Below are positions 1,203 through 64,000 of a stretch of 64,000 bases of DNA, piece after piece; position 1 is the stretch's first letter; every line of letters begins with the position of its first letter. Below the pieces are notes generated by a model. That model saw only the letters and a list, made by a program, of their open reading frames with translations, did not search any database and was not told where the DNA came from. The position numbers and the translations under genes are program-made. Location of the stretch: assembly GCA_023231475.1 (NCBI GenBank), contig JALJEE010001557.1:1-64000 (forward strand), written 5' to 3'. This DNA is from Seison nebaliae. Taxonomy: Eukaryota.

Positions 1203-2865
1203 ATGTCATTCTTTTCAAAGAATTGTGTGAGACATGTATCGTCCGCAGCAAGTTAGAAATTGATGAAAGATTTTAAGAATTTTAATTTTTGTAAAAGATA
1301 AATTGAATTTGACTCGTCGAATGAAAGATGTTGTTTTGATCGATGGTGTGAGAACTCCATTTCTGGTGGCAGGTACTGATTATAAGAATATGATCGCTCA
1401 TGATCTTGCACATTCATCTCTCGTGTTAATATTTTTTTGGAATTTCATTCTTCCATGAAGAATTTCAGTGCTTTGAAAGAGAAAATTCCATTTCCGTTAG
1501 AAGAGATCGATCATGCCGTTTACGGATGTGTCATGATGGAATTCATTACCAGTAATATTGCTAGAGAAGTTTAATTTAAATTTTACGAATTATTTTTATG
1601 ATTCGATTCTATATATTCGAAGGCTATGTTATCAGCTGGTTATCCGGAGAAGATCTCCGCTCATACTATCACTCAAGCTTGTATCTCTTCCAATCAATGT
1701 TCTGCCACTGCTATATCGATGATTGCAAGTGATCAAGCTGATACAGTTGTAGTAGGTGGAGTTGATTTTATGTCAGACGTACCAATTCGATTCAATAGAA
1801 AGATGAGACAATTAATGTTATCGTTAAATAAAGCGAAATCGGGAAATGCCAAATTTAGTGTAATCTCCAAAATGTTGTCACCAAAAGTTTGGTCACCTGA
1901 ACTCCCAGGAATTGCTGATTTTACTAGTGGAGAAATTATGGGACATTATGCTGATAGATTATGCGCCGCTTTCAATGTATCACAAGCGGAACAAGATGAA
2001 TTCGCTAATCGATCACATACGAAAGCATTTGAAGCGACGAAAAATGGTCATTTAACTGACGTTTTCCCAATGTATGTTGAAGGTGGAAAAGATGCAATTT
2101 CTACTGATAACGGTATCAGAATTACTCCAATAGAGAAATTGAACAAAATTCGACCGGCTTTCATCAAACCACATGGAACTGTTACTGCAGGAAATTCTTC
2201 ATTTTTAACTGACGGAGCTTCGGCCGCTTTGATTATGTCGGAAGAGAAAGCGAAACAATTAAATGTTAAATGTAAAGCATATTTGAGAGATTATATGTTT
2301 TATTCATGCAATCCTAACGACGAACTATTATTAGGGTTTCCATTCAATTCCATCAATATTCCATTGAAATTCTCCTTTTTTTCAGACCTGCAGTTGTAAT
2401 TCCAAGATTGTTGAAGAAGATTGGTGCAACATTAAGTGATATCGATGTTTTTGAAATTCATGAAGCATTTGCTGTTAAGAATATTCTTTATCAATTTTTC
2501 ACTTCAAATTCCATTGGAAAATTTAGGGACAAATTCTTGCAAATTTGAAAGCGATGTCTAGTGACAAATTCGCTCAACGACGTTTGGGAACGAGTAAAAA
2601 TGTTGGAGAAGTACCAATGGAAAAATTGAATACATGGGGTGGATCTTTAGCTCTTGGTTAAATGCTCAAAATTCCTTTTTCAAAGAAAAATTATTTCAAA
2701 AAAATTTTTTTTTCAGGTCATCCTTTTGCCGCGACTGGTACTCGATTAATAACAATGGCTGCTAATCGACTACATCAAGAAGATAAGAAATATGCATTAG
2801 TTGCTGCTTGTGCTGCTGGTGGACAAGCAGTTGCTATGTTAATCGAACGTCATCCTGACTATTAA
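1203..2865 (+). CDS. HADHB: Trifunctional enzyme subunit beta (3-ketoacyl-CoA thiolase), 7 exons; introns 1252-1297, 1425-1468, 1569-1622, 2336-2385, 2474-2526, 2657-2716
   Basis: Spliced product contains [16 protein letters not shown] (catalytic Cys), [36 protein letters not shown] and AACAAGG. Confidence 0.93.
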
Positions 2866-4872
2866 ATTATTTAAATAAATATTTTCTATGATATTTTAAC
2901 GGAACAAATAAATTTTTCAGTTGTCGCTTAACATTTTTGTGTGATAACTAACAATTAATTCATATATATACATATATATATGTATATATATATATTCATA
3001 TAGATAACGTTGTAAGAATTTGGAAAATTAAGAAAGAAGAAATTTTTAAATTAGTGATAAAAGAGAAGAAGGAATCTTTATGTTGTATAATAATAATAAG
3101 TTTTATGACGTGTAATTTCGATTAAATGATCAAATAAAATTAAATGAAATTTGTGTTTGTTAAAGGAAATTAAAACGAGGGAACGAGTTGAGATGAAACA
3201 CGGAGAGACAAATAATAAATGGATCTTTGAAACGGATGGTGAGATGGATGCAAATGAATGAATTTCATTAAAATAATAACATTTCAAATTGTTAAATGAT
3301 AATAAATATTTTTCATCCACCAAAACATTAAGATAAGATTTAAATTTCCAATAAATATATATGTGAACCGAAAGAAAAAAAAATTGACACCGACAAAACG
3401 ATTCAATTTTAATAGAGAGGAAATTATTTGGAGAATTCTCAAAAGAATTCTTTCGTTGCATGAGAAACAAACGATGAGAAGATGACGATATTTTTCCATT
3501 CAATTCATTTATGATGGAAATGAAGGTTATGGAATAGATTGCAAGGAAAACGGATAAATAGAGGATAAATAGAAGATAAATAATTTAAATAAATAAACAA
3601 ACCTCTCCATCGTTCAGTCAATCACATTTTGACAGATTCGACGAAAATGGAGAAGGTTTGAAAAAAAATCCTGATAATTCATGGAATTGATCATGATTTT
3701 AGAAAATAAGTTAATAATGTGACAGAAGTACATCAATCGATTATTGATTAGGTGTTGATCGATAATTGCATGATAGAATCGAATCCGTTATGGATAACGA
3801 ATATTTTTCAATATCGATATATCTGTACGAATGTTTATAAATGTATGTGTTTGTGTGTGTTTGTGTGTGCATGTGTGTGTGTATATGAGTGTTTGTGTGT
3901 GACTTTGAATGACATTGGAGAAGGAAGGAGAAAATTTTGACAATATAAAAGAACCGGTCAATCACTTGATATGTTTCTGGACATATTTTGTGGTAAATGA
4001 ATGAAGGAAAGAAATGAATTAAAACAAATTCAGATATTCAATCGATTAATTGATTGATTGATTGATTGATAATTGTTTGTCAATTTGAGTTTTTGATTAA
4101 ATCTTCATTGGAATCATGATTTATTTTTTCGATCGAATATAATTTGTTTTATTTCATCACCAATTTTTCCAACCACACGATGATCATATCGAGTAGTTTG
4201 AGGAGAAAATGAATTGCCCGACAAAATCATCAAGAAGCAGAAGGAGAGAATTGAGAAAATCGAATTGCTTCAAAGATTTTTTGGAAAAAGAAGAAAGTTA
4301 AATATGAAATAGTGATTTCTCAGAACATGCATAATCGTTCGAATTCCATCTCGTTTCAGGAAATCACTGGCAACTTGATGAGACGAAATAAGTAACTGAT
4401 TACTTGGAGAAGATTTCCTAATTGAACTTGTTAGTTAGAGCATTGGAATCAGTTTCTCGCCCAAAATCTTTTTGGAAATATTTTTTTCGTAATAAAATTT
4501 TATTACAACACACAACTTTTAATTGATTGTTCACCGGTGCCATTTTTATGATGATTATGATGATGATGATGATGATAATAATAATGTTGTTAATTTTTGT
4601 TGTTTTTCGTTAATTATCATTATAAGGAAAATTATTTTTTCTTTCTCACATTGATTTGTTTTTGTATACGAATATATATATATATATATAAATATATATT
4701 CATTTAATTCATTTATGTAGAATTATTTATACATACAGTTATTATTGTGTTTGTATGCATGTGTGTGGATGTGGTGCAGTTTGATGGATATAAGAAAAGA
4801 AAAAGGATAAAGAAAATTCCATCAATAATAAAGTCATTCAACTCGGAAATTCGGAGAGGAGAAAAAGAAAAT

Positions 4873-7106: not shown

Positions 7107-7191
<85 letters not shown>

Positions 7192-15070: not shown

Positions 15071-17900
15071 ATGTCGTCCGGCTTACAAGTGAGTCGACGC
15101 TCGAAATATTCGAAGCTTGTGCCAAATACTCAAAAAGATTTTAACGTTAACGATCTCGTACTGGTGAGTGTGAAAGGATATCCAATTTGGCCTGGAAAAG
15201 TTACTGATTTTCTCCTATTAAAATATTCCATAAATTCTCTTTCATCACAATTTGTTTTTTGGGAATTCACTTCTCAAATTTCTCTTTTTCAAATACAATT
15301 ATGAAATTTATATTTTCGGAAATCACATACGTAATTTGTCTTTTTCAAATACAATTATGTGAATTGAATAGATTGAAGAGCAAGTGGAAATAAAAGGGAA
15401 GAAAATTGGGAGATATAAATGTCGATTTTTCGGAACGAATGAAACGTTAGAAATTTCACATTATCTTTTAAAAATTTTATTTTCTTTTTCAGATTGATAA
15501 CTGGATATCGTCGAGTTTATGATTATCAGACATTCACTCATTTATTAAATGAGAGAGATAATCGGAAATTTTTCCAATTAGCATTATGGCAAATCAAAAA
15601 CGATCCATTTGATAGATTATCGAAAGATGAGCAAGCAGAAAAGTTCGAGGAATATATGAAAGAAAGACGACCAACACTCGAAGAAGTTGAGGTGAGGAAA
15701 ACGTCTATGGTGGAAATTAAAGAAGAGAAATTAGACGAAGAAGAAAAACGAGAATTGGCAGAGAAAGAAAATGATAAAAATTTCACACAAAATTTCGAAG
15801 AAGAAAATGTGGAAACGAGACCAACAGAAGGAGGGAATTTAATAGAGAATGTAACAACATCATCAACGTCTGATCATCGAAAGCGAAAACGGAAAAATTT
15901 GGTAAATTCAGATTATTTCGATGATTCATCCAACGATATCGTTCATGATGATAATGATGAAGATTTCGTCTTGAATTCTCATGAGAAGAAAAGGAAGAAA
16001 GAAAAGAAAAAGAAGGATGAGAGAAAATTATCGATAAGTAGAAAGAAATCACAAAAATCGAAATTACCTCAATCATCTGTAATGGAATCACCTACGAATA
16101 ATAAATTTAATCGATGTAAAAATATTTCAGATTTATTGAATGATAATAATGTTGAAGAATGTTCGAAGGATGAGGATATGAATATGAAGATTAATGTAGT
16201 TGTTCATCAGAATAATGATAATAAATTCAATGGAATGAATATTCAAATAAAAGAAGAGAAAATTGATCATGAGATAAATTATGAAAATTTACCGGAAAAG
16301 TTGCCATTCCATCAAAACGTTGAAAGTTTATCACAAAACGAAAATTATGAGAATTTAGAAAATTCAAAAAAAAAGAACAACTCAGAAAATTTAACAAAGA
16401 AAAGAAATTCGTCAAAGAAGAAAAATTATGAGAAATTGTCCAAATCGAACAATTTAGATAATTTAGTAGATGAAGAAAATTATGGTTTTTTGTTGAATAA
16501 TCGATCTGATGGAAATTTATCGGAAAAACAAAATTTCGAAAATTTACCTGACAATGAGAATATTGGAGGAGATTTATCAGAAAAACAAAATTTAGGAAAT
16601 TTATCTCAAAATGAAAATTTCGGAAATTTCTCAGAAAATCAGAATTGCGATAATTTAGGAGAAAGGAAGAAGGATGAAGATGATGAAGATTGCGATGTGA
16701 TATTTCAACCAATAATTGATTTGACAGATCCTGAATATGATAAACCGTTGTCACCGTCAGCATATGTTGAAGATGAGAAATTGATGAGGAAGAATTTGAA
16801 AATAAAAGAAGAGAATGTTTTATTTGAAGAGATGAAGAATGAAGAAGTGGGGGAGAATGATGAAGAAAAGCCGATTATTAAGAAGACGATTATACCAGAT
16901 CGTGATGGTCCCGTTGTCATGACATTAGATAAGGATCAACCATACGTCCGATATTTTAGTAATTATAAAGATAGTTTCGCTTTGCGTCAACAAGCGGCGA
17001 GGAGGAATGACGAACGAGTTTTGACTTTGAAACAAATCGAAACGTTTTTCGCTCAAAATGTTCAACCAGCAATCGGGAATAATCTCTCGTATTATATGAG
17101 AAATAAATTGAAGAATTCGACAATGTTGAAAGCGGTTTATGGGAAATTCATCGAGAGAACATCAAATCAACGAAAACGGAAAAAGAAGGAACCACAAGAC
17201 AAATGTAATAAAGATTCACCGGAGAATAAAAAGAATACTTTGATCGAAGTAATGTTAGAAGAGAATCGAGCACAACAAGCAAAATTACGCGAACGACAAG
17301 CAACTGGTACGACTACTAATCGAACATCATCAAAAACAAAAACGACGAAAACGAATAAAGTGCCAATGACAAATTATCAGAAATCAGCAGATGTCAAAGG
17401 AATTTATCGTTTTGAAGAATGGAATCAATTGAATGATGTTTTGAGAGATAATTGTTTTTTAGCTGCGAAAACAAATTTATTTTCTATTCGAGAAAGTGTT
17501 CTCACATTGAGTGAGACTTATGATTTTGCTAATATTCCCGTTTTCCATAAATCGTTAGATGGAAAATTTCTGGAAACGATCATCCTCCAATATCTGATGA
17601 GAATCGACGGAATTATCACAATTGAAGTTAATTTTTTGAAGTTTTTTTTTAAAAATTTATTTCAAACATTTCTAGTCGGAAGATGAAGAAGATGAATTGA
17701 TTATGATTCTGAGAGGATTATCAGAGGTGTTGAATTGGAACGAAATTAAAGAGAATGTTCGTCTCTCACCACAAATCGTTAAGAGATCTGTTCTAATTTT
17801 TGAGAAGCATGCACATTTGTGTCATTTGAACGATACGATTGGAGATCTGTTTAGTCAAATAGAAACGGAATTGGAGACTCTTGGTGAAAACGAAGAATAA
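15071..17900 (+). CDS. PWWP-domain chromatin protein (HDGF/LEDGF-like N-terminus), 4 exons
   Basis: Spliced N-terminus DLVLVSVKGYPIWPGK/IEE...YKCRFFGTNET is a PWWP domain. It is followed by Lys-rich NLS-like and Asn/Glu-rich repeat regions. Introns start near 15200, 15445 and 17627. Confidence 0.75.
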
Positions 17901-21624: not shown

Positions 21625-24183
21625 ATGACGAATGAGTATGGTTTTCGTTCTCAAGGTATGTCGAAAGAGTCGTCATATTTGAACATGAGAGAACCACATC
21701 GATCCATCGTCCCTTCCAGTAAATTGCCGATAAAGCATTTGTTACGATTAGATGACGATTCAGAAGACGACTTACGATTTGATCAGTTGATAGGACAAAA
21801 CTTTTCCCGTTCGTCCAAAATCGATCAGAATGAGGAAGTTGAAGTTTATGATGATGATTTGGTGATATTGTCGGAAGGACCGAACGATAATAATTCTGCT
21901 AATATTATCGATTCGATTAATATGGATATCTTCCAAGATGGTATGAATGATAAGGATCCAAATAGTTTTAGTGATATGTCATTTACGGAAACGGAACATA
22001 TACCAGGTGACGGTCGTCGTAAAAATAATAATGATAATTTTAGGAAAGCATTACATGCTCCCGTGCCAACTGAACAGAATTATATTCAAAAGAATCTCCA
22101 TAAGAAGATCGGAGAGAATATGAAGAGGATGTCGAAATACCATAATTTATCTCAATTGACACCCGAATCTCGAATTAGTACACGAACCGTTAGTACGACG
22201 AGCAAGTTAAGTGCTACGGGAATGGAATATAAGAAGATGTTTGAAGAAGCTCATGAGAGAGGTTAGGATATTAATGGAAAACTATAAATTTTATTAGAAA
22301 GTCAAGTGATGAATTTATCTAGAGAACATGCTGACATCCCACCAACTACTGATCACGTACCAAGAGTTCTTTCTCTTCTTCTAATATTTTAAAAATTATT
22401 TAAATTTATTTTCAAAAGAAAAAATCGAGTAGATCCTCGTCGAAGAGTAGAGAGGAAGAAGTAGTGAAATTTGTAAGTAAACAAATTCTTAGTGAGATTC
22501 AATCGATGAGACAAGATATACCAAAAACATCTGATAACGAATTACAGGAGGAATTATTGAAAGATACAGAAAATACGATTACGACATTAGAAGAACGTCT
22601 TCGTGGTTTAGAAGATAAATTGATCTCTAGTGAACAACAGAAAGCGATCGAAATAACGAAAGTGAAAGTTCGAATTTTTAGGATATCATCAATAAGATCT
22701 TTAAGAAGAATGAGATGAAAATGCAGAATGGTGAAAAAGAACGAGAATTAGCGAAATTGAGGACGGACAATGAAATCCATTTAGTTGAATTAGAAACACT
22801 TCAAAAACAATTAAAGTTAAATTCAAATTGTTTAATTTGAATATGAAATGAGAATAATTTGAGAATAGATGTAAACAGAAGGAAGTGTTAGAATTGAAGA
22901 ATTTGCAACGATCTTCTGATCGACAACGAAGGAAACAACGAGAAGATTTCGAAAATAAAATCAACGATGAAGTCATTAATTGGAATAATAAAGTTAACGA
23001 GAATCGTTTCGGAAGTGAATAAAATTTTCATAAATTCAGTTACATAATGCGAAACATGAAGGAGGGATGTTAATGAAGGAAACTAAAGATGAATACGAAT
23101 TATCGATGAAGAAGATAAAGGAAGAACATAAGGAGAACATGGGAAAATTAGAGGAGAAATTTCGACGTGAAATGAATGAAAGAGAAAATGAATTGAATGG
23201 AAAGATTTCGATATTGGAAAAGAAAACGAATAAATTGGAACAGGAATTAACTTTTACGAAAGACAAGTTAAAAGTGGAACATCAAAAATATGAGAATAAA
23301 CTCCAACAAATAAAAGATGAGGCCGATCGAGAAATTTCAGAAGCGGTTCGAATGAAACGCGAAGAATCGATTAACGCGATAAAGAAGGAGAGTGCAAAGA
23401 AAACGGTTTCCTTCCATGAAATATCTCCATTAATTCCATATGTTGTTTAGCAATTGTTTGAGAAGGAGAAAAGAGAGTTGAAAGAGGAACATACAAAAAA
23501 ATTAAATTCGTTCGCTCAGGAAACAGATAACCGAGTAAAAGCCGTCGAACAAATGTTGGAAGAGAATGAAAAGCAAATTAATGACTATAAGAATAAAATA
23601 GTGGAATATGAAATTAAAGTGAGTAACAAAGAAAAGGAGTCGACCAATTTGGAAAACAAAATAAATTATATGTCAGAAAAGTACAAGAAAATTACTCAAC
23701 AACTCAAATATCAGAGTGAGGAGCGAATTGAAGTTTTCTTAAATTTCTCTCAAAATTTTTATTTCTTGGATTATAGGAAGAACAACAATTGAATTTATTG
23801 AAAAAAGAAAATCAAATTTTACACGAATCAAACAAAGAATTAATAAAGAAATTCGAAACTGATGTTAGTGAGAATTTGATGAATGTGATTGACTATTGGT
23901 CAATTTCTAGAAAGAATTATTAAAGAAAGATTTCCAAGATCAAATTGTCAACAGTTTCCCAACTTCGGTCAAGAAGAATTTGGACGATACCGTTTTTCTA
24001 TTGAGAGAACAGATTCAAGCGTTGCAGGGACATCTGAAAAAGTCTAAATCTCCAACACCTAAACATCTAGTGACTGATAAAGGGAATGTGGTACCGAAAC
24101 CGATTTGGTTAGATGAGAGGACGTGCAAAAAGCGAGAAACTCCTGCTGGATCGGGAAGAAGTTCACGTAAAAGCAAACAATGA
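21625..24183 (+). CDS. Long Glu/Lys-rich coiled-coil protein, 9 exons; possibly centrosomal or ciliary
   Basis: ORF fragments join in frame across 8 short GTT..AG introns. Heptad-rich composition; no specific family recognised. Confidence 0.7.
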
Positions 24184-24429
24184 TTAATTTGTCGTGCTTA
24201 TAAGTTATCAGAAACATTATCAATACTATATCTTGTTACTTATCATTTTTACCTCAAAATAAAATGAAATCATTCAAAAATTAGGAAGTCAGTATTTATG
24301 ACTAATAAAATAAATTCAAGTTTATGAAAAAGTTTTTTCGATTGTCAATTATTGTTGGCTAATATTTAAGATGAAATTAGATAGATTAAATTTTTTAATT
24401 CTCATATTTTAGTGGAATGGTTAATGGAA

Positions 24430-25492
24430 TCAATATAATGCTACAAATGTAACATCATCTGCAATTTGAACTTGATCTATGAGATATATTGAGCAGAATT
24501 AAAATGAGATTTAAAAAGTAGGAACCTCTAGTACTGTAAATAGGTCCACACGAGTATAAGATATAATCAGCTTCATATGGTCTTGGATCATATTCGTTAT
24601 GTCTATAGTAACAGGCACCAGTGGTAGAGACGATTGATATTACGATACTATCAGTATCACAAGTTACACAATTCGTTATGAATGACAATGGTCTTTTTCC
24701 GTTACTAGATAAAGTAAAATTATAAAAGAATAAAGAATAACGAACTCAAATAAATGTTCTTCATTATAATGGGTGGAATGAATTGCTCCTAAATCATATG
24801 GTTCACACCCTGGAGCAAAAGGTCCAATGGCATATTTGATATGTTGTATACGGAACCAACGAGTGTTATCAGATTCCTCCTTATTATTCTCAAAAATAAA
24901 TCTTGCCATAACATGGTCATTTTTATGGAAATCGAGTTGTATCTACAAATAATCGGTTAAGAGTTTATTATGGACGTCATTATGGAAAAATAATTGATAG
25001 TAACGTATTCGAAATTAGCGAATGGCATAGAAAGTAATTGAGATTTATATCGTCTACTAAAATTTAACGATATTGTACCGACCGGTTCGTCTATATCATG
25101 TCCGTCATTAGTCTCCCATCTGTCAGGTAAGGAAGGTCCTTTTTCGGTTATACTTCTACCTAATATTACATCTAATGAAGTTTCTTCAATTATTTATTTT
25201 TATCATGAATATTATAACTTTGATAAATGATGAATACATCTCCTTCTCTTATACAAGTGAATCCAAAATCATTTGATCGTTTAAAAGCTTTCTGTTTCAC
25301 ATCACAAATCTGATGATCATCATTCACAAATTGTCTCAATTTCACAATATCCACATTGGCACTCAACATTACAACACAATTAGTGCATGAGATATCATTG
25401 GAAGAGAGTCCTCGAGCGATAGCACTAGCTAACGATGTCGCTGATGAGTATTGAGTTAAGAGAAAAATCCAGTAGCAAATTTCGAAAAACAT
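24430..25492 (-). CDS. Secreted Cys-containing protein of unknown function, 5 exons
   Basis: Hydrophobic signal-peptide-like N-terminus. Four GTT..AG introns join the ORF pieces in frame, ending ...DDVTFVALY*. Confidence 0.65.
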
Positions 25493-30087: not shown

Positions 30088-30242
30088 ATTTCTTTATAAA
30101 TTCATTAAATTTTTATTAACATCTCTTCCATTTTTTGTAAGCAAAAACTTATTGTTAATCAATTTTGAAAAATAAAGAATAGTTTCGAATAAACACTGTA
30201 TATTGTATTTATTTTAATAAGTTTAGCTTTTGAATTTTTGTC

Positions 30243-30256
30243 GTTGCCATAGTAAC
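30243..30256. promoter_or_regulatory. RFX X-box GTTGCCATAGTAAC, 12 bp upstream of the PIH1D2-like ATG
   Basis: Exact match to GTNRCC(N0-3)RGYAAC, in front of a dynein-assembly-factor gene. Confidence 0.75.
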
Positions 30257-30268
30257 GTATTAAAAGAG

Positions 30269-31282: not shown

Positions 31283-31400
31283 TTTATTAAAACAACTCTC
31301 ATCTAATAAAAAAATATCGTTGAAAATACTTCCAAATAATCAAATGAATTGTATTAAATTAATATAATTAAAATATAATATTCAAATTAAAATTCTTTTT

Positions 31401-38700: not shown

Positions 38701-41694
38701 TAGAAAATAATTTAATAGATCGAAATTGGATAAGAGAAATAACCGAACCAAAATATTCCTTACTTACTGGAAGTGCATTGTTAATTCAACAATTTAAAAA
38801 TAATTTTCTTAAAATAATTCTACAAAATACTCGCAATCTAAAATTGTCCATCGCTCAAGTTTTGGTACCGATATTATTCGTTATTTTGGGAGTAATCGCG
38901 TTCAATATATTTCCTTCGGCTCTCTCAAAACATTCTCTATTACTCGGTCCACAAAACTATTCGGAACATATTGTTCCATTCGAACTGGAATTATCGGAAG
39001 CGGAATCGACACAAATGGAATTAGATATTTCAGATGTTTTCAGCAAAATTAAAAAAAGTCGGAAAGTAGATGACGATTATACTGTAATTTTACATAACGT
39101 TAATAAAGAATTGAACGAAAAGAAATATGCGGTGTGCGGAAATAAACAGTTAATATTTCTCGAAAAAAACTTTAAATTTTGAAAATTTTTCTTACGAATT
39201 TTTAGGTCGTTGCAAAATTATTCGGGATGTTTCGGAAATGAGATAAGTGTACATGACTTCTTAATGAATCATGTTATCGGTTTGAGAATAGAGAAGATTA
39301 ATTCGACTCTTCAATTAATCTCATTGTTCGAAAATTATTATTATCATGCTACAGCATATTCAGTTAATATTGTTTCTAATCTTCTGATGAAAATGGAAAG
39401 TGGAAATACCGATAATTTAATTACTACTTACAATCATCCATTGCCTCCAACTAATTCGGATGTACTGGGCCATCGTGATGATATTGTGGAGACGTTGGGT
39501 ATTTATATTCTTCTCATCGACGTGTTGATTGCATTCGCATTCATGTTCGCATCATACGCAGCTAATGTAGTCAATGAACGAGTATCTGGTGCTAAATTCT
39601 TACAAAATCTCTCTGGTATGAACTCCACCATTTATTGGTTAACTAATTTCCTTTGGAACTTCTCCAATTTCATCGTCGTATCAATCGCCATAATCATAAT
39701 TTTCAAAATTGGAGATGTATCACAATTAACTTCTAATTTCGGTTAATAGAAAGATAATATTAAATTAATTTTAAATATATCGCTCGCGAAATGACAGTTT
39801 TAGGTTCTCAACTATTTTTTCTGTTTCTACTCTTTGGTCCGTCGAATATCATGCTCATGTATATTCTCTCGAAATATTTCAAGAAATCAGCAAATGCTGT
39901 TGCTGCTCTTTGTTCGTTCAACATTTTGACGGGGGTCGTACCGTTTACGGTGATCTTCATTCTCAGACAAACTACAGATAATCAGGATGTACCTGACGCA
40001 TTAGATAATATTTTCATTATACTTTTACCAAATCATATGTTCGCTAACGGAATCTTCAAATTATACACATTGGAAAAAACAAAAGTAATTTGTGATCAAT
40101 ATTCAAATTTAATTATAAGTTAGAAAATATAATATAATTTTTGATTCTTCTAACATTGAAAGTAAGAGTTTGTAAGAGTTTTTTTGAAATTGTAAATCTT
40201 TTAAAATTTTCATTTTAATTCCTTAGAAGATTTTTCAGATTTATAATTTCGAAAAAGAATTAAAAGGAAGCTAACAAAATTGATATTTATTTTAAACGTT
40301 TTAATGTTTTAGGTGATTGTGATAAGAACTTTTTCTCGATGGAAAAACCTGGTGTACTGTTGAATATTATCTTTCTTGTCGTTCACGCAATCCTCATAAG
40401 CGGACTATTAGTTTTCATTGAGTCGCGTTTCAGTTATCGTATTCGTTGTTACTTATCAAGCATTATTAACCGATTGAAAACATGTCGAAGTAGAACTGAA
40501 AAAATGGAAAATGAATCGGTCGAAATTGAAGTTTAATTAATTTTAGTAATCAAATAAATAAATTTTTTAATTGTACTATTATATTAAAGGATGTATCTCC
40601 TGATATAATAAAGGAACAGAAGTATGTGGAAGACATCCGAAGTAACAGTAAGAAATTGGAGGATAATGTAGTGGTGGTTGATGGAATTGAGAAGAATTAT
40701 GGAGATTTTACTGCAGTTCATCCTACTTATCTACGATTAGGTTATGGCGAATGTTTCGGTTTGTTAGGAGCGAATGGTGCCGGTAAAACAACAATTTTCA
40801 AAATGTTAACCGGTAACGAAACACCATCAAACGGAAATATTTCCATAAATCAAATGAATTTAAAATCGCAACCAAAACTAGTTGGGAAATTTAATAGAAA
40901 TTAAAATTATATCATTCTGTGCATTGTAGGTGCAAAAAACTATGGGCTATTGTCCTCAATTTGATGCCTTATCAAATTACATGACGGGTAAAGAAATAAT
41001 TGAATATTATTGTTATATTCGAGGAATTCCTGATGAATATGTTTTAGAAACGACGAAGAATCTAATGAAATTGTTGAACTTAGAAAAATATGCGAATGTT
41101 TATGCAACGAAATACAGTGGGGGAAATAAACGGAAATTATCCACCGCTATCGCCTTAGTGGGCAATCCGAATGTCGTCTTGTTAGACGAACCAACGAGTG
41201 GAATGGATGTTGGTGCGCGACGGTATCTATGGAGAATAATTTTAGCAATTCGAGATACTAATAAACGATCAATCATTCTGACCACACATTCGATGGAGGA
41301 GTGTGAAGCATTGTGCACTAGAGCGTCGATTATGATGAATGGACAATTCCAATGTCTGAATTCCATTCAACAATTAAAGAGTTTCTATGGGAAAGGTTAC
41401 AATTTATCGTTAAAAACCAATGATGGCGAATCGATGAAACGATTATTAGAGTTTTTGAGGGAGAATTACGAGAAGGAGAATGTTAAAATAATAAACGAAT
41501 GTCAAAATATCGCCGAAGTCCAACTGAGAAATCACAACAATCGTCATTCACTTTCTTCCATTTTTGAATTGATGCAAAATAATCTGGATGAATTCTCCGT
41601 GAAAGACTACGCGATTACACAAACTACATTAGAACAAATATTCAACCAAATCACATCCAACCAAATTTCGCCTAATGGAAATTATGTTAATTGA
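35775..41694 (+). CDS. Full-size ABCA-family (ABCA3-like) lipid transporter, about 14-15 exons
   Basis: Two TM bundles and two NBDs: GQNGAGKS / LSGGQKRRL / ILDEPTAG / TTHFMDEAD, and GANGAGKT / YSGGNKRKL / LLDEPTSG / [16 protein letters not shown] and TTLEQIF regulatory motifs. Confidence 0.93.
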
Positions 41695-53029: not shown

Positions 53030-56000
53030 ATGGCGGATGAGGTGGATAGCGACGACTATTGTTTCTGTGGGAAAATTATCGGAGGAGAGATGATGTTAGT
53101 TGATTGAATTCGAATGATTTAATAAATTTCTCTGTTGTAGTCAATGTGATGGTTGTGAGGTGTGGTTCCATCTCGAATGTTTGAAGATGGATGAATGGTT
53201 GTCCAAATCGATTCATCATTATTTCTGTTTTTTGTGTCACCATCGGAAGAAGTTGAATGTGACATATTATGACAAGAAAATCTGGTCGAATAAACGATTT
53301 GAAATCTTGACAGAAGTTCCTTTCATTTTTAAGATATTTTAATTTTTCAATATTTTAAAATATTCTCATTTTTAATAGAAAAGCAAAAAACAAGAAACTA
53401 AATTACTCTCCTTCCTCACTGATGACATCAAAACTTGCGATGACTTCCGATTGATGTGGACGAAATTGCCAAAATATCGACGTTCTAGTGGTCGACGTCG
53501 ATCGAAAACATCGACCGATCAATCGATTTCTGATAAGGCCAAGAAAAAAATTCGATTGACAGATGATTATGAAACAAATAATGACGATGAAGAGGAAGTA
53601 GAAGTGAAAGATGAGAATAAAATGGAAATTGATGAAATGATTGAGGAGAATTCAGAAGTTAAAGAAAGTCAATCGAATCATGATAGTTTAATGAGTGACG
53701 AAAGTGTTGATGATAATGAAGATAATGAAGAGGAAACTGAAGAATCTACCGATGATGATGTAGAAGAAACAGAAGAAGAAACAGAGGAAGAAAGTGAAGA
53801 AATAGAAGAGAAAAAAGTAGAATGTGAAGAAGAAATTGATGAAAATGAATTATCATCAATTTTCTATGAAGATTTCATTGACTTAGCAAATTCGGATGAT
53901 GAAACAAAAATGTTGTTTAATCAAATCATTGAATTAGGAACGATGGAATACGCACTTCAATATTTAATGAAAATCAACCAATTTAACGATTTCCAATTCT
54001 TCCATTCAATTCCATCATCATGTTCTTGTTATGATGATCATCTGCCATCAATTCGATTGACATGTCCATTCTGTTCACATGTTACATTGGAAGACAATTC
54101 TTTATTTACACATATCGCTCAAGAACATTTTCTCATTCAACATTTCCCTCATGACAAATGGGATAATAAACATCAAAAGTTTCTTTTTGAACAGATCTCA
54201 AATCAATTCGATTCGATGAATTGGAATGATATTTATTTAATTTCGTTTGGAGAACATGTTGCTGAGCAAACCGTCTTCCATATCGATCGGATGTTAAATG
54301 AAATATATCCATTGAAAGAATTATATTTCTCCAAATTCAAATTGTCTAATGAATGTGTTCAAGAAGATGAAGAAGAGAAAGAGATTGAGAAGATACCAAT
54401 TATCGAAATTGAAAATTTTGTGAAAAATTTACTGGACGATATTGAAAAGAATGAACAAGAGGAAAAAGAGAGAGAATTGAAAGAAGAGGAAGAGAAGAAA
54501 TTGAGATTAATAAAAGAAGAAGAAAGACGATCGGATGAATTGAAAATGATAAAAGAAAAAATATTGAAAGAATTGAAATTGGAGAAATTGAAAGTTAAAG
54601 AAGAGAATGAGACGAAAAATATTCAAGAAGCGAAAATTCCTGAAGAAAATTCTGAAATAAAATTAAAAGAATCGAAAATTGTTGAAAAGAATGACGAAAC
54701 GGAACTAAAAGAATCGAAAATTCCTCAAGAAAATGATGAAACGAAAAAGAAAAAATCGAAAAAACTTCAAGAAAATTCTGAAACGAAAGCAAAAGAATCG
54801 AAAAAACTTCAAGAAAATTTTGAAATTAAATTGGAAGAATCGAAAGTTGTGGAAAAGGATTATGAAAAGAAAACGAAAGTTGTGGAACAATCGACATTGA
54901 AAAATTTGAGAGATTTCCGAATTAAACGAGATGAAGATGAGAATGAAATGAAAAAATTGGAGATATATCAAGAAAGAAGGGAATCGAATGAACATTCCAT
55001 TCCACCTGAACAGACAATTAAAGATTTATTGGAGAAGAAATCGAATGATGAGAGTAAATCTATTTTAGTTCCATCCACCGTCTCCACTGATAACACATCC
55101 GTCATCTTTCCATCTACATCGTCTGGTACTTTAATGAATTGTTTCCAAAACAAAGAAAATAAAGGAGTCGTTCCTCTTATCTCACCAAACAGTTACAAAT
55201 TATATAGTCATCAATCTCCTATGAATGATGCCAGACAGAAATTTTATAAGAAAATCATAGGTAACGAATTAAATGAATCAGAAGAGAGAATGGAATCGAA
55301 GATTCGAATACCAAAAAATCCTTTACTTAATTTCCGTCCAAATCGCTCAGCGAATCGAATTGAAAAAAAACCTTCGATTAAGACTTCACCTGTTGACGAC
55401 AAATGTAAAGTCAGTACAACCAGTGACGGATGTTCAGAAGTGATGACATGTTCCGTCGACGACGTTGTGAAAGCGGAACCATATTTTAAAATAAGGAAAC
55501 GACAATGGCCAATAAGAAGATTGATTTCTGAATTAGATCGATTTTGTGAGAAAGAAACAGAACCAACAAATTTCTTCAATTCCGCATCATATGCCGCAGT
55601 CAAATATTACATGACTAAATTTGGAGAAGAAAAATTACATCGAGAAGATTATTCGTTATCAAATCAAATATTTTTAAATAAAGAAGAGAAAGATTTAGAA
55701 GTAGAAATCTCGAAAGAAGATATTATTCGACCGACATCACTTCTCCATCAAATCCGTCGACATCACAACGACGAAATCATTTTGAATGGAAAATATAAGA
55801 ATCACACGAAACCGTTTCGTTCAGTTGTTAATAAAGAATTTAAACGATCAAACAAATCAAATAAAACTCAAAATTCAAATTCGATCAATTCGAATAAACG
55901 AACAATAATTCCTCAAATTACCGACGAGTATTGTAGCGAGTACACCAGCTCATCAGAACTAACGAAAAGTCTGTTAAATAAATCCACCATCTCAACCATC

Positions 56001-56348
56001 CCTCAATTGGATGGTATGGATTTGAGTGAGGAACGAGTTACTCTTGTCCAAGTACCGATGAATAATTTATTTTCATATTCTGTCGAAATACTGACGAATT
56101 GTCTTAAATCGAGAGAGTTCATTGATGAATTGTCCGAATTGGAAAAGAAACGAAAGAAACTTTTCCGAACGAACTTCGTTCGTTTAATCTCTTCTGTCTA
56201 TTGTTCATCACTTTTCAAGCGACTTGCACTGTTCTTCAATTCACAACAACGTCAGATGAATCACCGAGATTTCTATTTAAATCTCTTTATCTTAAACAAA
56301 ATGAAAATGAGATTAGTGCACAATTATCTTGAGGTTTTGGAGAGATGA
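53030..56348 (+). CDS. PHD-finger protein with acidic region, C2H2-like zinc finger and 14-aa repeats, 3 exons
   Basis: Spliced N-terminus YCFCGK...MIQCDGCEVWFHLECL...YFCFLC is a C4HC3 PHD finger. CPFC-x12-H-x4-H lies further downstream. It joins in frame to the 965-aa ORF. Confidence 0.8.
54617..54860 (+). repeat. Coding 42-bp (14-aa) tandem repeat, KESK(I/K)xxE(N/K)xExK-like, about 6 units
   Basis: QEAKIPEENSEIKL / KESKIVEKNDETEL / KESKIPQENDETKK / KKSKKLQENSETKA / KESKKLQENFEIKL / EESKVVEK. Confidence 0.8.
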
Positions 56349-56899: not shown

Positions 56900-59800
56900 A
56901 TGGCACGTCGAAAGCATGATACGTCACTTAATGTTTATCATTTTCATGAACAGTCGTTCTTAATATCCATAAATATTTCAGCAACTTATTTCTACGCAAG
57001 AAGAATGGGAAGAAATGTTAGAGAAAGATGGACTTTGCAGTTAGTTCTCCTTTTAGCCAAATTCTTTAGAGAGATTATTAAAAAAAGTCTTGGAAAATTA
57101 TTCTACGTTATAAAAATTTTAATTTTAATTGGAAGATGACTGATAGAAAATATTTTCTTTATTATAGTTATATAACATTATGGTTAGAGTAGTTATGAAA
57201 TGAATGAGATTTCGAGATTTTATGAGAAAAAATGAATTTTCGATGAATGAAAAATTGAGAAAGAGATAAATTAAATATTATTAAATAGTTATAGATGTTT
57301 TCGGTGAATTTGCTGGACGATGTTCGGCAATGGACAATATATTCAGTAGGTTCCTTCATACCGAAGCACCAGAGCCCGATCAAATATTCTTCTTTGCGGT
57401 GAATAATTTTGAAAAATTATTAATTTACTTTCTGTTCCTTCAGTTGTTGATGTGTTTCAATTATGGACTGGTCCTTGTCGAGCGATGGACAATGATTTCC
57501 GTACAATTCGCAATTTATTTGACTCATCAATTTTATCATTTTATTCTGTTCGTTTTCTTTCTCCCTTTTACTTTCTTTAATTATTATAAACTTCCTCTAA
57601 TCATCTCCTAATTAATGTGATAGGCATGTGCTGATAAAATAGACTCGCTAGACAAATATCGTGGAAAATGTGAACCTTGTTTTTTATTCTATTCGGTTCG
57701 TTTCTATTATCCTTGAACTTCATTTATCGAGATTTTAGGGAGGAGCATTAGTTGCAGCAGTAAGAGGAGCGAATGCGCCTGATCTTACCGAGACGATGAA
57801 ACAGATGGCTAACAAAGAAATATTGATACAAAAAGGAGAAGCAACGAGAGTTGAAATCAAAGATCCGGCTATCGCTCTAATCGAAAGAGAGGAGCAAATT
57901 CAAATGGAGAAACAACGAGTGATCGATAGTGAAGGTTAATTTTTACCCAACATTTTTTTAGGAAAATATCTTTTGGTTCAATTAGATATTATCTTCTATG
58001 GAATGAATTCACTTTATGGACATCAATTTCTTCTGCCATGTAATTTGATAACTTTTAATTTTCCTGTGACAAATCCTTTCTGTTCCCAAAACTACTTGTG
58101 GAATGTCTCCCTATTTTCTATTGAAAAATTTGTTCTTGAAACATTTCCAAATTGTCTAATTTCTCTATTTTCTAGCAATGGTGAGAAATTTTATTACAAC
58201 TGCTCTCATTAAGCCGGATATCGTGGCTGACGGAAAAGTCGATCTAATGTTGGAAGAGATAGAAAACGCAAATTTTGTAGTTGTATCTCAAGTGACGAAA
58301 ACGTTTACAGAAGATGAAGCTAAAGAGTTTTATAAACATCATCGTGAAGAAGTTGTGGTTTTTTTCGAAAAACAAAATAATAATAAAATCTTGTCAGTTA
58401 TTCTTTTATGAATTGGTGGATTTCATTATAAGTGGAGAATGTATCGCCGTGGCCATAACATTAAAATCATTATATAATATCAAGACGTTGGATGACGTAG
58501 TTAATCGATGGAGATCAGTTATCGGTCCATGGAATATGGGACAAGGAACTCAAGGTGAGAATGATGGAACTTTAAGGAAGAAATATGCTTCAGATGAAAT
58601 TAAAAATGCCATTCATGGTCCTGATAAGGCAGCTCAAGCGAAAAAAGAATTGGCCTTATTCTTCCCCAATCTCATCATTCCTCCGGAAATTATCAAAAAA
58701 ATCGTTGACCAAACTGATAAAGATAAGGCGGATGTGATTGATAAGAAGAGTTCAGTTCAACGTGAACGGACAATTGCAATTATTCGCCCGAAAGCAAATG
58801 CTTCATTGAAAGGTTTATATTCATTTTCTTCGATTAATCCTAATACAAATTTAAATGATTAGTTGAGATATTAGATGCGATCAAAGAAAAAGGATTCAAA
58901 ATTGCCATGAACAAGGAAGTGACATTGGAAGTAGAAGATGCTCAAAAAATTTATGAAAAATTCCAGGAAGAACCATTTTATGAAGGACTCATTAATGAAA
59001 TGACAAAGTTGCATTTTTAAATTATGAAAACATTTATCGTATTTACATCGATTTAGTGGTCCGTTAATGGTTCTGTGTTTAGTCAGTGAGAATGCGATAG
59101 AGAAATGGAGAGGTTATTTGGGACCAAAAGAAAAGAAAGATTTCCCCGCATTTATTGACAGTTTCCGTGCTAGATTCGATATTGTCGATTCGCCAATCAA
59201 CACTTTGCATGGTGCGTCTACTCGAGCTGAAGCGAACGCTGAATTGGCATATTACTTCAAATTGGAGCAGACGGTGGCAATTATTCAAAATGATCCAAAA
59301 GTCAACCGAGGTTCATTTTCGTCGTTTGAGAAAAGAAACATAAAAAATTTTTAAAAACTTAGATCGAATTATTTATCAAATGGAAGATTCGGGATTTATC
59401 ATCAGTTCGGAAATACGAATGAATTTCACCGAAGAACAAATAAGGGAACTTTATGCAGAAAAAGTGGATGAAGAGTGGTTCCCCAAATTCGCTCGATATA
59501 TGACAGAGTTAATAATTTTGATAATTCAACTTTTTTAAATTGTGGGTTTTTCTAGTGGGGAAAGTGATATTTTATTATTGACAGGGGAAGACGCTATCGA
59601 GAAATGGAATACAATGATGGGACCGTATGACCCGGAAGAAGCTAAAGAGACAGCTCCCGACTCGTTTCCTCAATTTTGACTTTCCTTAATTCTACATTTC
59701 CTTTTATAGTTTACGTGCTATGTATGGTAGTAAATTGCCTCAAAATGCAGTACATGGTCCATCCAATACGGAAGAATTTGAAAGATTTATGAAACTTTTG

Positions 59801-60096
59801 TTTCCAGATTGTGAGAAGGATGAAAAAGGAATATATACTGGTCCTAATATTGATGATCTTGGTTTTTTTGGATTGTTAAATTATTTTTTTGAAATTCTCT
59901 TTTTCAGGCGTTGAAAGAAAATCTATTGATTCAAACGGTTAACTTTTGCTTTTTAGTAAAATCACTAGAATATAATTGAACAATAATGGATGAGGGGAAA
60001 ATAATTTTAACTACTACTTTTTTAGGTTTCTTTTACTGGGCATTAGAGGCTAAATCTAAAATGAGACGAGGTCGCGCTACTAGTATTAGCTCATGA
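56900..60096 (+). CDS. NME8: Thioredoxin plus three NDP-kinase domains (NME8/TXNDC3-like outer-arm dynein chain), with duplicated alternative thioredoxin exons
   Basis: MARRK start; thioredoxin DKIDSLDKYRGKCEPCFLFY..G.LVA.VRGANAP; NDK domains ALIKPD...NAIHGPD, ERTIAIIRP...NTLHGAS, EQTVAII...NAVHGPS. The last exon is less certain. Confidence 0.88.
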
Positions 60097-60771: not shown

Positions 60772-61062
60772 ATGAGTTTAACTTCAAAAATCGTCTTAGG
60801 GTGCTCGTTAAGTGGTTGTGCTGGTGTGATCTGGTATGTGAATCATCTGAAAGACAAAGAACAAGAAGTTGAGAATTTCTTTAAAAATTTAATTTCTATC
60901 TCTAACATGTAGAGGATGTCAAAGAATGTATTGAAAGATTTGTTTGAAGCGAATGAGAATGCTAAATCAAATCCACCTGAAAATGTGTTGACAGTTCAAG
61001 AGAATAAAGAGTTATATGACGAACAATTACGAATCATAAATAAATTGAAAGCAAAACAATAA
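60772..61062 (+). CDS. PET117: Cytochrome c oxidase assembly factor PET117-like, 2 exons (absent from the ORF track)
   Basis: MSLTSKIVLGCSLSGCAGVIWYVNHLKDKEQE/RMSKNVLKD...ENKELYDEQLRIINKL follows the PET117 pattern (MS..SK.VLG.S...VH...RL..GV.RD...EN.....EQ..L...L). Confidence 0.75.
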
Positions 61063-61257
61063 AAAAAACTTTTGAAAGAGATATCAAGGATCTTTCCCTT
61101 TTCCCCAAATTGACGTCATGTCCACTCCTAATTTATTTTCTGACGTTAACATCGTAAAAATGAGAAATAAAACATTATTTGAAATTAAAATTTTTTAATA
61201 ATACATAATAATTATTATAATTTAATATATTTCTTTCAGATATCTCCATTCCATTCA

Positions 61258-64000
61258 ATGTCTCTAGAATTTGTACAATTTCGTGGATTAATTCGAAGAA
61301 ATTTCACAATAATCCGTAGACATTTCACATTTCTTTTAACAGTTCATTTTCTTTCTCATTCATCTACAAATCTATCACATTCTAGTGTATAATTATACCG
61401 ATAATATTTTGTTTAATTGTAATTGGAAGTGAAAGTTTAAAAGAAGATTCACTTCCATCAATTGGAACGATTTTGAGAGAGTCACCAGAATTCACTCAAT
61501 CGATCCATTCAGAAGAGAACAAATTCTATCAACATTATTTCTCGAGAAAGATTCCATTCAAAAAACCGAATTCAAAACATGAAATTCTCATATTTGAAGA
61601 GAAGAAAAATTCGAGTGAGAAATTTCAAGAAATTTTGAATGATAATCAAATTCGATTTTCGTTCGTTAATAATTCAAGTGAAATCGAAACGAAATTGGCA
61701 TTGAATTGGAAGACGATAATTTTTGGAGTGAAATTCAAGAATACCATTTCAATTCATTTTCAATATAATAATAAGAAGAGTTCGAAATCGTTTTCTGATA
61801 TAACGGAAATCGATGAAGGAATTCAGGAATTTCGCGATTTTATCATCTCTGGAAATAATGACCGTTCATGTATTTATGCTTATGGTCTCTCCAATGATGA
61901 TCATGAATGTTATGTGAAATTGAGGAATGATAAAGGAATTTATTATTCGTTTCTTCTTCTTCTTAAATCAATGGGAATTGAAGAATTCGATCAATTCAAT
62001 TGGTCTTTCCAACTCCATTACACTAATGAGACTATCGAATCATTTAAAGATGAGAAAACGAGTTCGATTTCACAAATCAATTCCATCTCGTTAATTCTTC
62101 TACCGTTATTGGTGAGTGGAATTATCACTCCCATTCTTATGGTAATGATCGAAGAGAAGGAGACACAAGTGAGACATGTCATGATCATTATTGGCATGAA
62201 AATTTATATTTGGTGGTACAGATTTTTTCTTCTTCATTTTTTCCTTTTCTAAATTTCAGAATTTTTTTAGGATTGCATGGTTTTCTCTTATTATTCTTGT
62301 GAGCATTATTCAAAGTATTTTTTTTATAATTTTAACAATCATATTCGACATCTTCTCGGACGGATCGAATAGATTCGAATTGGCAATCGTCATCTTTTTA
62401 TACGCATGTTCATTCACTACTTTCTCTTTCGTTTTTTACTTATTCTTCGATCGTCCGAAAACTTATATGAATTTCTTGACGATTTCTGATATGATTCTCA
62501 ATTTCCTTTTCGTCATTCCAATGGTCATGATAGGAGTGGATGTTCATGTACCGAAAGTGATGTCTATTCTTTTCTGTTTCAATCCGTCTTTCCCCTTCCA
62601 AATCTATTTGACAAAAGTTATCTCAATTTTCAACAATTACAAAATCATTTAAACCTATTCATTTCTAGTTAGATAATGAGAATGAGAAATATTCAGAATT
62701 CCTTCAGAACGAATTAGATAATCGTCAAGATATTGGCAATCTATTGACCAGTACAGAAATCATAATTTATCAATTTGTCATTACCATATTATATTTGATT
62801 ATAACGATAATATCCGATCATTTCATTAATAGTTCCCTCCATTTTCTCATGTTCAAATGAAATATTTTTTTAGAGAAATATGCAGCAGATGATTTGGAGA
62901 ATGGGAATGTATTGATGGAAGTGAAGAATTTAAAAAAGATTTATCATAAAAAACGATTAATTCCTAAGAAATATTATCAGTCTGATGATTTGGTGGCTGT
63001 GAACGATCTCTCATTTAAGATCGAACGTGGAGAATTGTTAGCATTGATCGGTCATAATGGTGCGGGAAAAACGTCATTAATTAAATGTCTCATTGGAATG
63101 GAGAAATGGAATGATGGAAGTATCTCGATGAATGAGAAGAATTCCATCGGAATTTGTCCTCAAGAAAATACGATTATTAAACAATTAACATGTTATGAGA
63201 ATATTTTAGCATTCTCTTCAATCAACGGACAATATCAATGTGATAAGATTAATAGTGTTCTCTCACAATTAGGTCTATTATCTATGAGGAATAAGAAATC
63301 TGGTGGATTGAGTGGAGGACAAAAGAGGAAATTATCGTTGGCGATGGCTGTAATTAGTCAACCACAAATCCTCATTCTAGACGAACCAACAACTGGTATG
63401 GATCCTCAAAGTCGTCATAATGTCTGGAAATTTTTAAAAAATTATAAAATGTATGGTTTGGATGATGGTTTGAATGGAACTTTGGCACCATGTATCATTC
63501 TCTCCACTCACTACATGGACGAGGCGGATATCGTTGGTGACAATAAACTGATGATGGCACACGGTCAATTACGATGTTATGGCACTTCACTCGATCTTAA
63601 AATGGAATTCGGTTCTGGGAAATATTTGACAATAACAAAAAAAACGGGGAAAACATCAAAGGAGAATAATTTAATTATTAACCAAATTCTCCAAACGAAA
63701 GACATCAAATTAGAAGAGGAGACGAATGAATTATTGAAATTTTTCATCTCAAGTAAACTTCCTTCCATCACTTTTTTGGAAACCATCAAAAAAGTTCAAG
63801 AAATGCAGGATTTGAAACGGATTTATCGTTTCATAATCAATTCCATTACTTTGGAACATTTATTCCTCAAATTGAACAAAGAAGAAAATGAGAGTGTGGA
63901 ATCATTAAATGGAACGATTAGTAATCAATCGGTTGAATTGCAAGAAATGGATCGTATTCATCGAGATTCCGATAATATTATCAGAAATGATGGAAATGAC
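61258..64000 (+). CDS. Second, divergent ABCA-family transporter; 5' part only, truncated by the window end
   Basis: QFRGLIRRNF N-terminus, EEKET motif, and NBD1 GHNGAGKT, LSGGQKRKL, ILDEPTTGMDP, STHYMDEAD, ITLEHLF. Confidence 0.88.

What the first reader, a model, noticed from the sequence alone, without database searches (positions are those of the whole stretch)
1252..62873. Near-invariant GTT 5' splice sites: a rewired splice-donor code in an animal genome
Seen: I assembled 14 multi-exon genes by reading frame and homology, and about 83 of about 86 introns begin GTT. Examples: HADHB 1252 gttaga, 1425 gttaat, 1569 gtttaa, 2336 gtttcc, 2474 gttaag, 2657 gttaaa; all 8 NOP53 introns; 13 in ABCA; 14 in Slo. 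Positions +4 to +6 vary freely (gttccc, gttggg, gttgaa, gtttgt), with GTTAGT/GTTAAT only a subset. Where a nearby GTA/GTG exists (1423 gtg, 36117 gta), using it gives an early stop. Established: animal U2 introns mostly have a purine at +3, which pairs with pseudouridine 6 of U1 (5'-AUACUUACCUG); a U-rich +3 consensus is known from Entamoeba (GUUUGU). Inference: this lineage may have a compensatory U1 (for example 5'-AUACUAAC), altered U6 ACAGAGA/METTL16, U1-C or LUC7 recognition, or a new intron-definition mechanism for 40-60 bp introns.
Basis: partly seen in the sequence, partly recalled or inferred. Interest (0 to 1): 0.92.

Follow-up and report, generated by a model that had tools for sequence, protein, structure and literature searches.

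The report
Rotifer introns that start with GTT
In this stretch of DNA from the tiny marine rotifer Seison nebaliae, almost every predicted intron begins GTT instead of the GTA or GTG used by other animals, so its splicing machinery has likely been rewired to read a different start signal, possibly through a changed U1 RNA that could not be checked here.

Summary
Confirmed. The window is Seison nebaliae (Seisonidea, Rotifera). Three database proteins map exactly onto it: 34 of 35 introns start GTT. Homology to non-Seison proteins, blind to +3, fixes 29 of these 35 as GTT and one as GTG; 5 stay unresolved. A gene finder started from a canonical prior converges to 84 of 86 GTT. My curated set is 83 of 86, against 42-49% by chance (p<=4e-22). 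Other positions are weak, but GT at +5/+6 persists (12 versus 3.3 expected) and GTTNNGT is absent: the normal register with R changed to T at +3, not a shifted one. No introner family. Two of three exceptions are canonical donors at likely alternative-splicing sites. Mechanism untested: no genome, no RNA run, and the one U1 laid from the runs is of unknown origin with the key base unreadable. Best guess: a U1 with A opposite +3, as in Entamoeba. No animal case in eight literature searches; this scan noted GTT donors before only in protists. One 64-kb window.

The parts
1203..2865 (+). HADHB, 6 introns, donors 1252, 1425, 1569, 2336, 2474, 2657, all GTT
   Evidence: exact map of deposited SNEBB_003196; 5 of 6 fixed by non-Seison homology
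15071..17900 (+). PWWP-domain gene, donors 15200, 15446, 17627, all GTT
   Evidence: own model; Pfam PWWP
21625..24184 (+). coiled-coil gene of no known family, 8 donors (22262, 22366, 22668, 22816, 22993, 23406, 23733, 23864), all GTT
   Evidence: own model only; the neutral run chose non-GTT sites at some of these
24430..25492 (-). unknown gene, donors 25218, 25004, 24745, 24525, all GTT
   Evidence: donor-neutral model
26895..28016 (+). fructosamine-3-kinase-like gene, donors 27236, 27408, 27506, 27704, 27921, all GTT
   Evidence: own model; Pfam
30269..31282 (+). unknown gene, donors 30394, 30649, GTT
   Evidence: own model; weakly determined, a GTA/GTG parse scores as well
31401..32590 (-). 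HEAT-repeat gene resembling DOHH (name recalled from sequence, no Pfam hit), donor 31905 GTT
32737..34530 (-).
   Evidence: donor-neutral model; best parse without GTT scores 17 versus 80.5
35775..41694 (+). ABCA transporter, 13 introns, all GTT
   Evidence: exact map of database protein P0241; 11 of 13 fixed by homology
43079..43774 (-). unknown gene, donor 43725 GTT, 36-nt intron
   Evidence: own model, weak
45530..50155 (+). Slo/BK channel, 15 introns, 14 GTT
   Evidence: deposited SNEBB_003209; 13 fixed as GTT by homology
47988..48135 (+). exception 1: canonical GTGAGT donor, 148-nt intron, at the junction where vertebrate Slo1 isoforms differ by inserted exons
   Evidence: deposited model; alignment to gar isoforms with and without inserts
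53030..56348 (+). PHD-finger gene, donors 53095 and 53316, GTT
56900..60096 (+). thioredoxin-NDK gene (NME8/9-like), 13 donors, 12 GTT
   Evidence: own model; Pfam NDK
57289..57623 (+). exception 2: two tandem, similar exons (57289-57398 and 57444-57547), predicted mutually exclusive; the first ends at a GTGAAT donor (57399), the second at GTTCGT (57548)
   Evidence: either exon alone keeps the frame (644 or 642 aa), both together stop at 107 aa; exons alike, E=2e-6
60772..61063 (+). small gene resembling PET117 (name recalled), donor 60868 GTT
61258..64000 (+). second ABCA-like gene, donors 61342, 62617, 62832 GTT
62216..62270 (+). exception 3: GTACAG donor (or GTGGTA at 62213), 55-nt intron, no nearby GTT
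   Evidence: ABCA profile prefers 62216 by 5.4 bits

Best explanation
The predicted introns of this Seison nebaliae window are short GT-AG introns that begin GTT in 83 of 86 cases, and the spliceosome likely reads them in the normal register with a part whose preference at +3 has flipped from purine to U, most likely a U1 snRNA carrying A instead of U opposite +3. Steps: (shown) the donor signal is GTT plus weak remnants of the usual consensus (-2 A, -1 purine, +5 G, +6 T), about 6.2 bits in all; (shown) introns cluster at 40-62 nt, are G-poor, and are T-rich at +6 to +15; (inferred) so short a signal would work by intron definition, pairing a GTT with a YAG some 50 nt on, perhaps helped by a U-rich-tract binder of the TIA-1 type; (inferred, untested) a one-base change in the U1 5' end would turn the U-pseudouridine mismatch at +3 into a U-A pair and so select T genome-wide; (inferred, weak) canonical GTG donors survive where a donor must skip the nearest acceptor, at alternative-splicing sites.
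For: 34 of 35 GTT in exactly mapped database proteins; 29 of 35 fixed as GTT by +3-blind homology; EM from a 5% T prior gives 63 of 84 T at once and 84 of 86 at convergence; forcing GTA/GTG costs 53 to 131 score units in HADHB, NOP53, ABCA and Slo; sequence 30201-50200 is identical in an independent lay of run X1, which may be the source; 9 of 10 listed frame-breaking indels in low-depth ~83%-alike contigs fall inside two predicted introns (12 of 54 rows shown). Register: GTTNGT 12, GTTNNGT 0, 3.3 expected each; intron-side pairing excess z=4.3 normal versus 1.7 shifted or bulged. Precedent for the U1 step: Entamoeba GUUUGU with U1 ACAAAC and Mastigamoeba (Roy and Bowser, 10.1101/2022.06.08.495308).
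Against: The Seison U1 was not read. The only U1 that my lay found in the runs differs from a canonical invertebrate U1 at 12 of 67 letters, only one of them listed; its origin is unknown, so a canonical U1 is not excluded. The strongest U1 pairs are poorly kept (-1 G 26 of 86, +5 G 21 of 86, neither in 45 of 86), odd for selection driven by an RNA duplex, and +5 G and exon purines can equally come from U6 and U5. Altered donors without U1 change are on record (Thecamonas, Micromonas, 69 yeasts), though those concern +4. All three exceptions have a purine at +3, which suits a canonical U1. No RNA junctions; one window; no relatives compared.
Confidence: 0.5

Rival explanations
1. U1 is canonical, and +3 U is selected later, in the catalytic core: a changed U6 ACAGAGA box (G44, which faces +3) or a changed PRP8/SNRNP27K/METTL16 makes U+3 a third obligatory letter, with U1 only loosely marking the region.
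For: +3 is almost as fixed as +1/+2 while U1-pairing G positions are weak. U6 G44 faces +3 and pairs only weakly with A or G (PMC11732430, passage); Roy and Bowser note that GUUUGU pairs better with U6 ACAGA. U1 position need not set the cleavage site (PMC11162779, passages).
Against: G44 is general in eukaryotes that still prefer purine at +3, so a real change is needed and none was seen; the one +3 precedent (Entamoeba) kept U6 and changed U1. U6 and the proteins were not examined.
Confidence: 0.27
2. Canonical snRNAs; GUU is read by proteins of the U1 particle (altered U1-C or LUC7) and a U-rich-tract binder, as part of cross-intron definition of ~50-nt introns.
For: T is 0.57-0.60 at +6 to +12 versus 0.40-0.48 further in; tight length peak; Entamoeba U1-C is highly diverged; LUC7 subfamilies shape donor composition (PMC11842720, passages).
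Against: A U-rich tract does not explain 97% at one position; 9 of 11 introns over 100 nt also start GTT. Proteins not examined.
Confidence: 0.11
3. Canonical U1 pairs one base out of step (shifted or bulged register), so its A7 pairs with U+3.
For: Would explain +3 U with no snRNA change; -1 A is raised (42 of 86, p=0.011) and GTTAA is the commonest pentamer (16 of 83). Known in a small share of human donors (PMC11162779).
Against: Its hallmark is absent: +6 G 7 of 83 (background), GTTNNGT 0, -2 C 11 of 83, no coupling of -1 A with +5 A or +6 G.
Confidence: 0.07
4. Artefact or local effect: AT-rich composition, a self-reinforcing gene model, or one burst of mobile introns.
For: T follows GT in 42-49% of cases anyway; the database proteins may be predictions trained on the same genome; 51 of 86 donors are my own models.
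Against: p<=4e-22; +3-blind homology gives 29 GTT to 1 GTG; introns are no more alike than Markov controls (27.1 versus 26.6 +- 0.6), show no terminal repeats, and have the usual phase bias 40:25:21; 15 unrelated genes, both strands.
Confidence: 0.05

Closest known systems
Entamoeba transformed donor GUUUGU(U) with co-evolved U1 ACAAAC (Roy and Bowser, bioRxiv 10.1101/2022.06.08.495308; abstract and Results parts 1-2 of 3 read)
   Same: U at +3 in nearly all donors, GT-AG ends, normal register, short AT-rich introns.
   Different: Entamoeba is an intron-poor protist with a strict hexamer (88-90% GUUUGU, 97-98% GUUUGN) and a fixed branch point. Here an intron-rich animal (about 3 introns per kb in the multi-exon genes, lengths) fixes only +3: GTTTGT occurs once in 86, 36 different hexamers, no branch-point enrichment (41 versus 41.8 shuffled). 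U1 change not shown here.
Ordinary metazoan U2-type introns, (A/C)AG|GURAGU (PMC3488318, passage)
   Same: GT-AG ends, remnants of -2 A, -1 G, +5 G, +6 T, pyrimidine-rich acceptor, phase 0 excess.
   Different: +3 is T in 97% rather than A/G; -1 G and +5 G are both weak, so the donors fit neither of the two classes of PMC11732430 and PMC11842720.
Shifted or bulged U1 registers at atypical human donors (Roca and Krainer 2009, Roca 2012; seen only as cited in PMC11162779)
   Same: GTT start, often after A.
   Different: About 1.5% of human sites use such registers and carry the displaced consensus; here GTT is the rule and the displaced G is absent.
Animals with non-canonical donors: copepod Eurytemora GA/GG donors (PMC5714493, listing and abstract start only); Oikopleura and Fritillaria (recalled, no call)
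   Same: Animal lineages with a changed donor code.
   Different: Those alter +2 or both ends in a share of introns; this keeps GT-AG and inverts +3 in nearly all.

Membership tests
U2-type spliceosomal introns | GT (or GC) first and AG last | tested here: met
   each of 35 exactly mapped junctions has exactly one GT/GC-AG placement
U2-type spliceosomal introns | purine at +3 in most donors | tested here: not met
   3 of 86
U2-type spliceosomal introns | +5 G/+6 T bias in the normal register | tested here: met
   weak but significant: +5 G p=3e-5, GTTNGT p=1e-4
U2-type spliceosomal introns | removal shown in RNA | not testable with these tools
   no RNA holder listed; X6 and X7 laid nothing
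U12-type introns | RTATCCTT donor (PMC3488318) | tested here: not met
   none of the 86 donor hexamers
Entamoeba-type transformed donor with co-evolved U1 | near-universal U at +3 | tested here: met
   83 of 86
Entamoeba-type transformed donor with co-evolved U1 | strict hexamer GUUUGU and low intron density | tested here: not met
   GTTTGT 1 of 86; about 3 introns per kb
Entamoeba-type transformed donor with co-evolved U1 | compensatory change in the U1 5' end | tested here: inconclusive
   one U1-like contig per run, origin unknown, the position facing +3 not listed
Shifted/bulged-register donors | consensus displaced by one base (+6 G, +7 T) | tested here: not met
   +6 G 7 of 83, GTTNNGT 0
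Introner-derived introns | introns alike in sequence, with terminal or flanking repeats | tested here: not met
   similarity at Markov-control level, no terminal repeats

The most novel reading that the evidence does not exclude
Seison is the first animal with a co-evolved splice-donor code: a rewritten U1 (A opposite +3) serves the constitutive GTT introns of an intron-rich genome, while a second, canonical U1 or a special pathway serves the few GTG/GTA donors kept at regulated alternative-splicing sites such as the Slo1 variable site and the mutually exclusive thioredoxin exons.
Probability: 0.2. Interest if true: 0.92.

Novelty: new variant of a known kind. Interest (0 to 1): 0.75.

Why it matters
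A purine at +3 is one of the most general features of splice donors, and known rewirings of it come from intron-poor protists. An animal with thousands of introns and alternative splicing that has switched nearly all of them to U+3 had to move a whole genome and its spliceosome together. That makes two open questions testable with public data: which component (U1, U6/PRP8 or U1 proteins) really sets the +3 rule, and how a genome-wide signal can change without an intron bottleneck. It also matters in practice: gene finders with generic animal donor models will misplace exons in this lineage.

Tried and rejected
No whole genome is held, so no genome-wide logo and no search for U1, U6 or splicing proteins. 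No Rfam family in the window. No RNA holder listed; runs X6 and X7 laid nothing and X1 and X2 behave as DNA, with no splice joints. U1 motif scan of viral contigs: 2 hits, neither a U1. Scan of genome contigs: 11 hits, 7 checked, 5 real U1 genes with a canonical 5' end, all contamination in bacterial bins. Runs X1-X4 laid on one of them (L009): one contig per run over 292-358, canonical stem-loop II loop in the loose end, GC-rich flank, depth 0.4-0.6 of the main contigs in X1 and X2; could be host, another organism or Seison; the decisive base is not listed: no verdict. Bdelloid HADHB alignment against metagenomes: best 80 of 379 loci, none with introns, so no comparison with relatives. U6 and the splicing proteins were not examined. 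Avoidance of decoy GTT near donors: not specific (27 GTT, 27 GTG, 17 GTA, 13 GTC in 30 nt upstream of 84 donors). Branch-point motif: none above shuffles. Rejected: shifted register, U12 type, introner burst, composition alone. Dropped as doubtful: in-frame stop-free introns at Slo 45836 (deposited, GTT) and FN3K 26952 (GTT).
Full report
Source. HADHB exon 4 and a Slo exon are 100% identical to NCBI proteins labelled SNEBB_003196 and SNEBB_003209 of Seison nebaliae, on a contig of 67,643 bases. Seison is a small rotifer living on the crustacean Nebalia, with a genome of about 46 Mb, about 32% GC, compact genes and two divergent strains (PMC8351084, passages). The window is 29-33% GC. No whole genome is held.

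Check 1, database proteins. I mapped P0121 (HADHB), P0241 (ABCA, unnamed but identical to the spliced gene) and P0391 (Slo) letter for letter, allowing any intron ends. Each of the 35 junctions has exactly one GT/GC-AG placement; 34 start GTT and one GTGAGT. These proteins may be predictions; the passages I saw do not say how they were made, so this is not RNA evidence.

Check 2, homology blind to +3. For each of the 35 introns I enumerated every frame-keeping GT/GC-AG pair within 45 nt and scored the whole protein against profiles of non-Seison homologues (112, 45 and 22 sequences). The best GT donor is GTT in 31 of 35 (22.9 expected by random choice among valid donors, p=3e-4). Counting only clear cases (no valid non-GTT donor, or at least 4 bits margin), 29 are GTT, one is the GTGAGT, and five lie in poorly conserved linkers and stay open: 1252, 39149, 40531, 45836, 48356.

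Check 3, all genes. A small gene finder with no donor information beyond GT recovered GTT at every HADHB, ABCA, NOP53, DOHH-like and 24-25 kb intron, with some non-GTT calls where it fused genes or misplaced small exons; its coding and acceptor models were trained partly on the three mapped genes. Run on 15 delimited genes and started from a canonical prior (A .62, G .30, T .05), it gave 63 T of 84 in the first round and settled at 84 of 86. I then edited by hand: Slo 47973 replaced by the deposited 47988, PHD 53099 by 53095, ABCA2 62213 by 62216, FN3K 26952 dropped, NME8 given both alternative exons (57548 added, acceptor changed), and the deposited Slo 45836 left out. Result: 83 GTT, 2 GTG, 1 GTA. 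Background for T is 0.42-0.49; p is 4e-22 or smaller. Least certain are the 21.6-24.2 kb, 30.3 kb and 43 kb genes, which have no homologue in hand.

Sequence quality. A contig of run X1 spans 30201-50200 without a difference, though it may be the source; in low-depth contigs about 83% alike, 9 of the 10 listed frame-breaking indels lie inside two predicted introns and the other two listed exonic indels are multiples of three (12 of 54 rows shown, depth under 5).

Anatomy of the signal. Counts A/C/G/T: -2 51/12/8/15, -1 42/5/26/13, +3 1/0/2/83, +4 36/20/7/23, +5 31/15/21/19, +6 17/13/8/48. Information against local background is about 6.2 bits, 5.5 of it in GTT. Forty-five of 86 donors have neither -1 G nor +5 G. 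Introns have a median of 49 nt, 8.8% G, and raised T at +6 to +15; acceptors are TAG 55, CAG 16, AAG 15; no branch-point motif stands out. Seventeen unused GTA/GTG sites near 16 of 84 donors match the canonical U1 better than the donor in use. The register is the normal one: GTTNGT 12, GTTNNGT 0, 3.3 expected each. The introns are not a mobile family.

The exceptions. The Slo GTGAGT donor follows KKCSCKT, the same junction at which gar Slo1 isoforms differ by inserted exons (that this is the STREX site is recalled). The NME8-like GTGAAT donor closes the first of two similar tandem exons that cannot both be used; it lies 45 nt before the second exon's acceptor, the favoured intron length, so a non-GTT donor there would avoid joining the two (inference). 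The third, GTACAG, is an ordinary 55-nt intron. Two of 11 long versus 1 of 75 short introns, p=0.04: suggestive only, n=3, alternative splicing not shown by RNA.

Mechanism. Something in trans must favour U at +3. A U1 with A at position 6 is the smallest change, keeps the register and has a precedent in Entamoeba; I give it about even odds. The main rival is selection at the U6/PRP8 stage, because +3 behaves like a third obligatory letter while the U1 G-C pairs are loose. My one attempt to read the U1 used real U1 genes found as contamination in bacterial bins as bait for the runs: one U1-like contig per run was laid, 12 differences in 67 letters, only the central one listed. A single GC-rich hit per run fits a host or bystander U1 as well as a Seison one; it decides nothing.

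Literature. Searches found no description of Seison donors or of an animal with a +3 T consensus; 'Seison' with 'splice site' occurs in 2 papers, neither on this. The library lacks most subscription papers, and I did not open supplements; Additional file 1 of PMC8351084 and species tables of pan-eukaryote intron surveys could hold a Seison logo. Seen: PMC8351084, PMC10125929, PMC11732430, PMC7310846, PMC3488318, PMC11842720, PMC11162779 as passages; PMC10599564 abstract; Roy and Bowser abstract plus two thirds of Results. Earlier notes of this scan report GTT donors in protists (Bonamia, a foraminifer, unnamed protists with shifted classes), none in an animal; they are unchecked and prompted the shifted-register test.

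Verdict. A real, statistically overwhelming donor variant in one window of an animal, a new variant of the known kind 'transformed donor consensus', apparently undescribed, mechanism open and cheap to settle with the full assembly.

Noticed in passing
window 57289-57547: Two tandem similar exons in the thioredoxin domain of the NME8/9-like gene, predicted mutually exclusive; the CxxC-like site reads GRC in one and GPC in the other.
   Followed up: partly
window 51830-52160 (+): Neuropeptide precursor with four MDPFAFG repeats between GKLGKR spacers; weak Pfam Allatostatin hit. A possible 5' UTR intron from a GTATTT at about 51564 to 51829 would be another non-GTT donor.
   Followed up: no
window 40163-40177 and 59908-59937: Possible micro-exons inside longer introns (15 nt in ABCA, 30 nt in the NME8-like gene), each flanked by AG and GTT; the second keeps the frame.
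   Followed up: partly
window 45836-45892: The deposited Slo model removes an in-frame, stop-free 57-nt GTT intron that my models retain; may be a prediction error or an alternatively retained intron.
   Followed up: no
window 28801-30084 (+): Intronless class I/II aminotransferase in an intron-rich neighbourhood; origin (retrocopy or horizontal transfer) not examined. ATP synthase delta (341-844), MCU (19215-20417) and a 1292-aa RRM gene (4873-8748) are also intronless.
   Followed up: no
runs X1 and X2 laid on window 30201-50200: Contigs at depth 2-5 that are about 83% alike to the window, consistent with a second lineage in the same runs; useful for testing conservation of +3 T.
   Followed up: partly
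L003, L004, L006, L009, L011: Five bacterial genome bins carry animal-type U1 snRNA genes on short contigs, that is eukaryotic contamination.
   Followed up: partly
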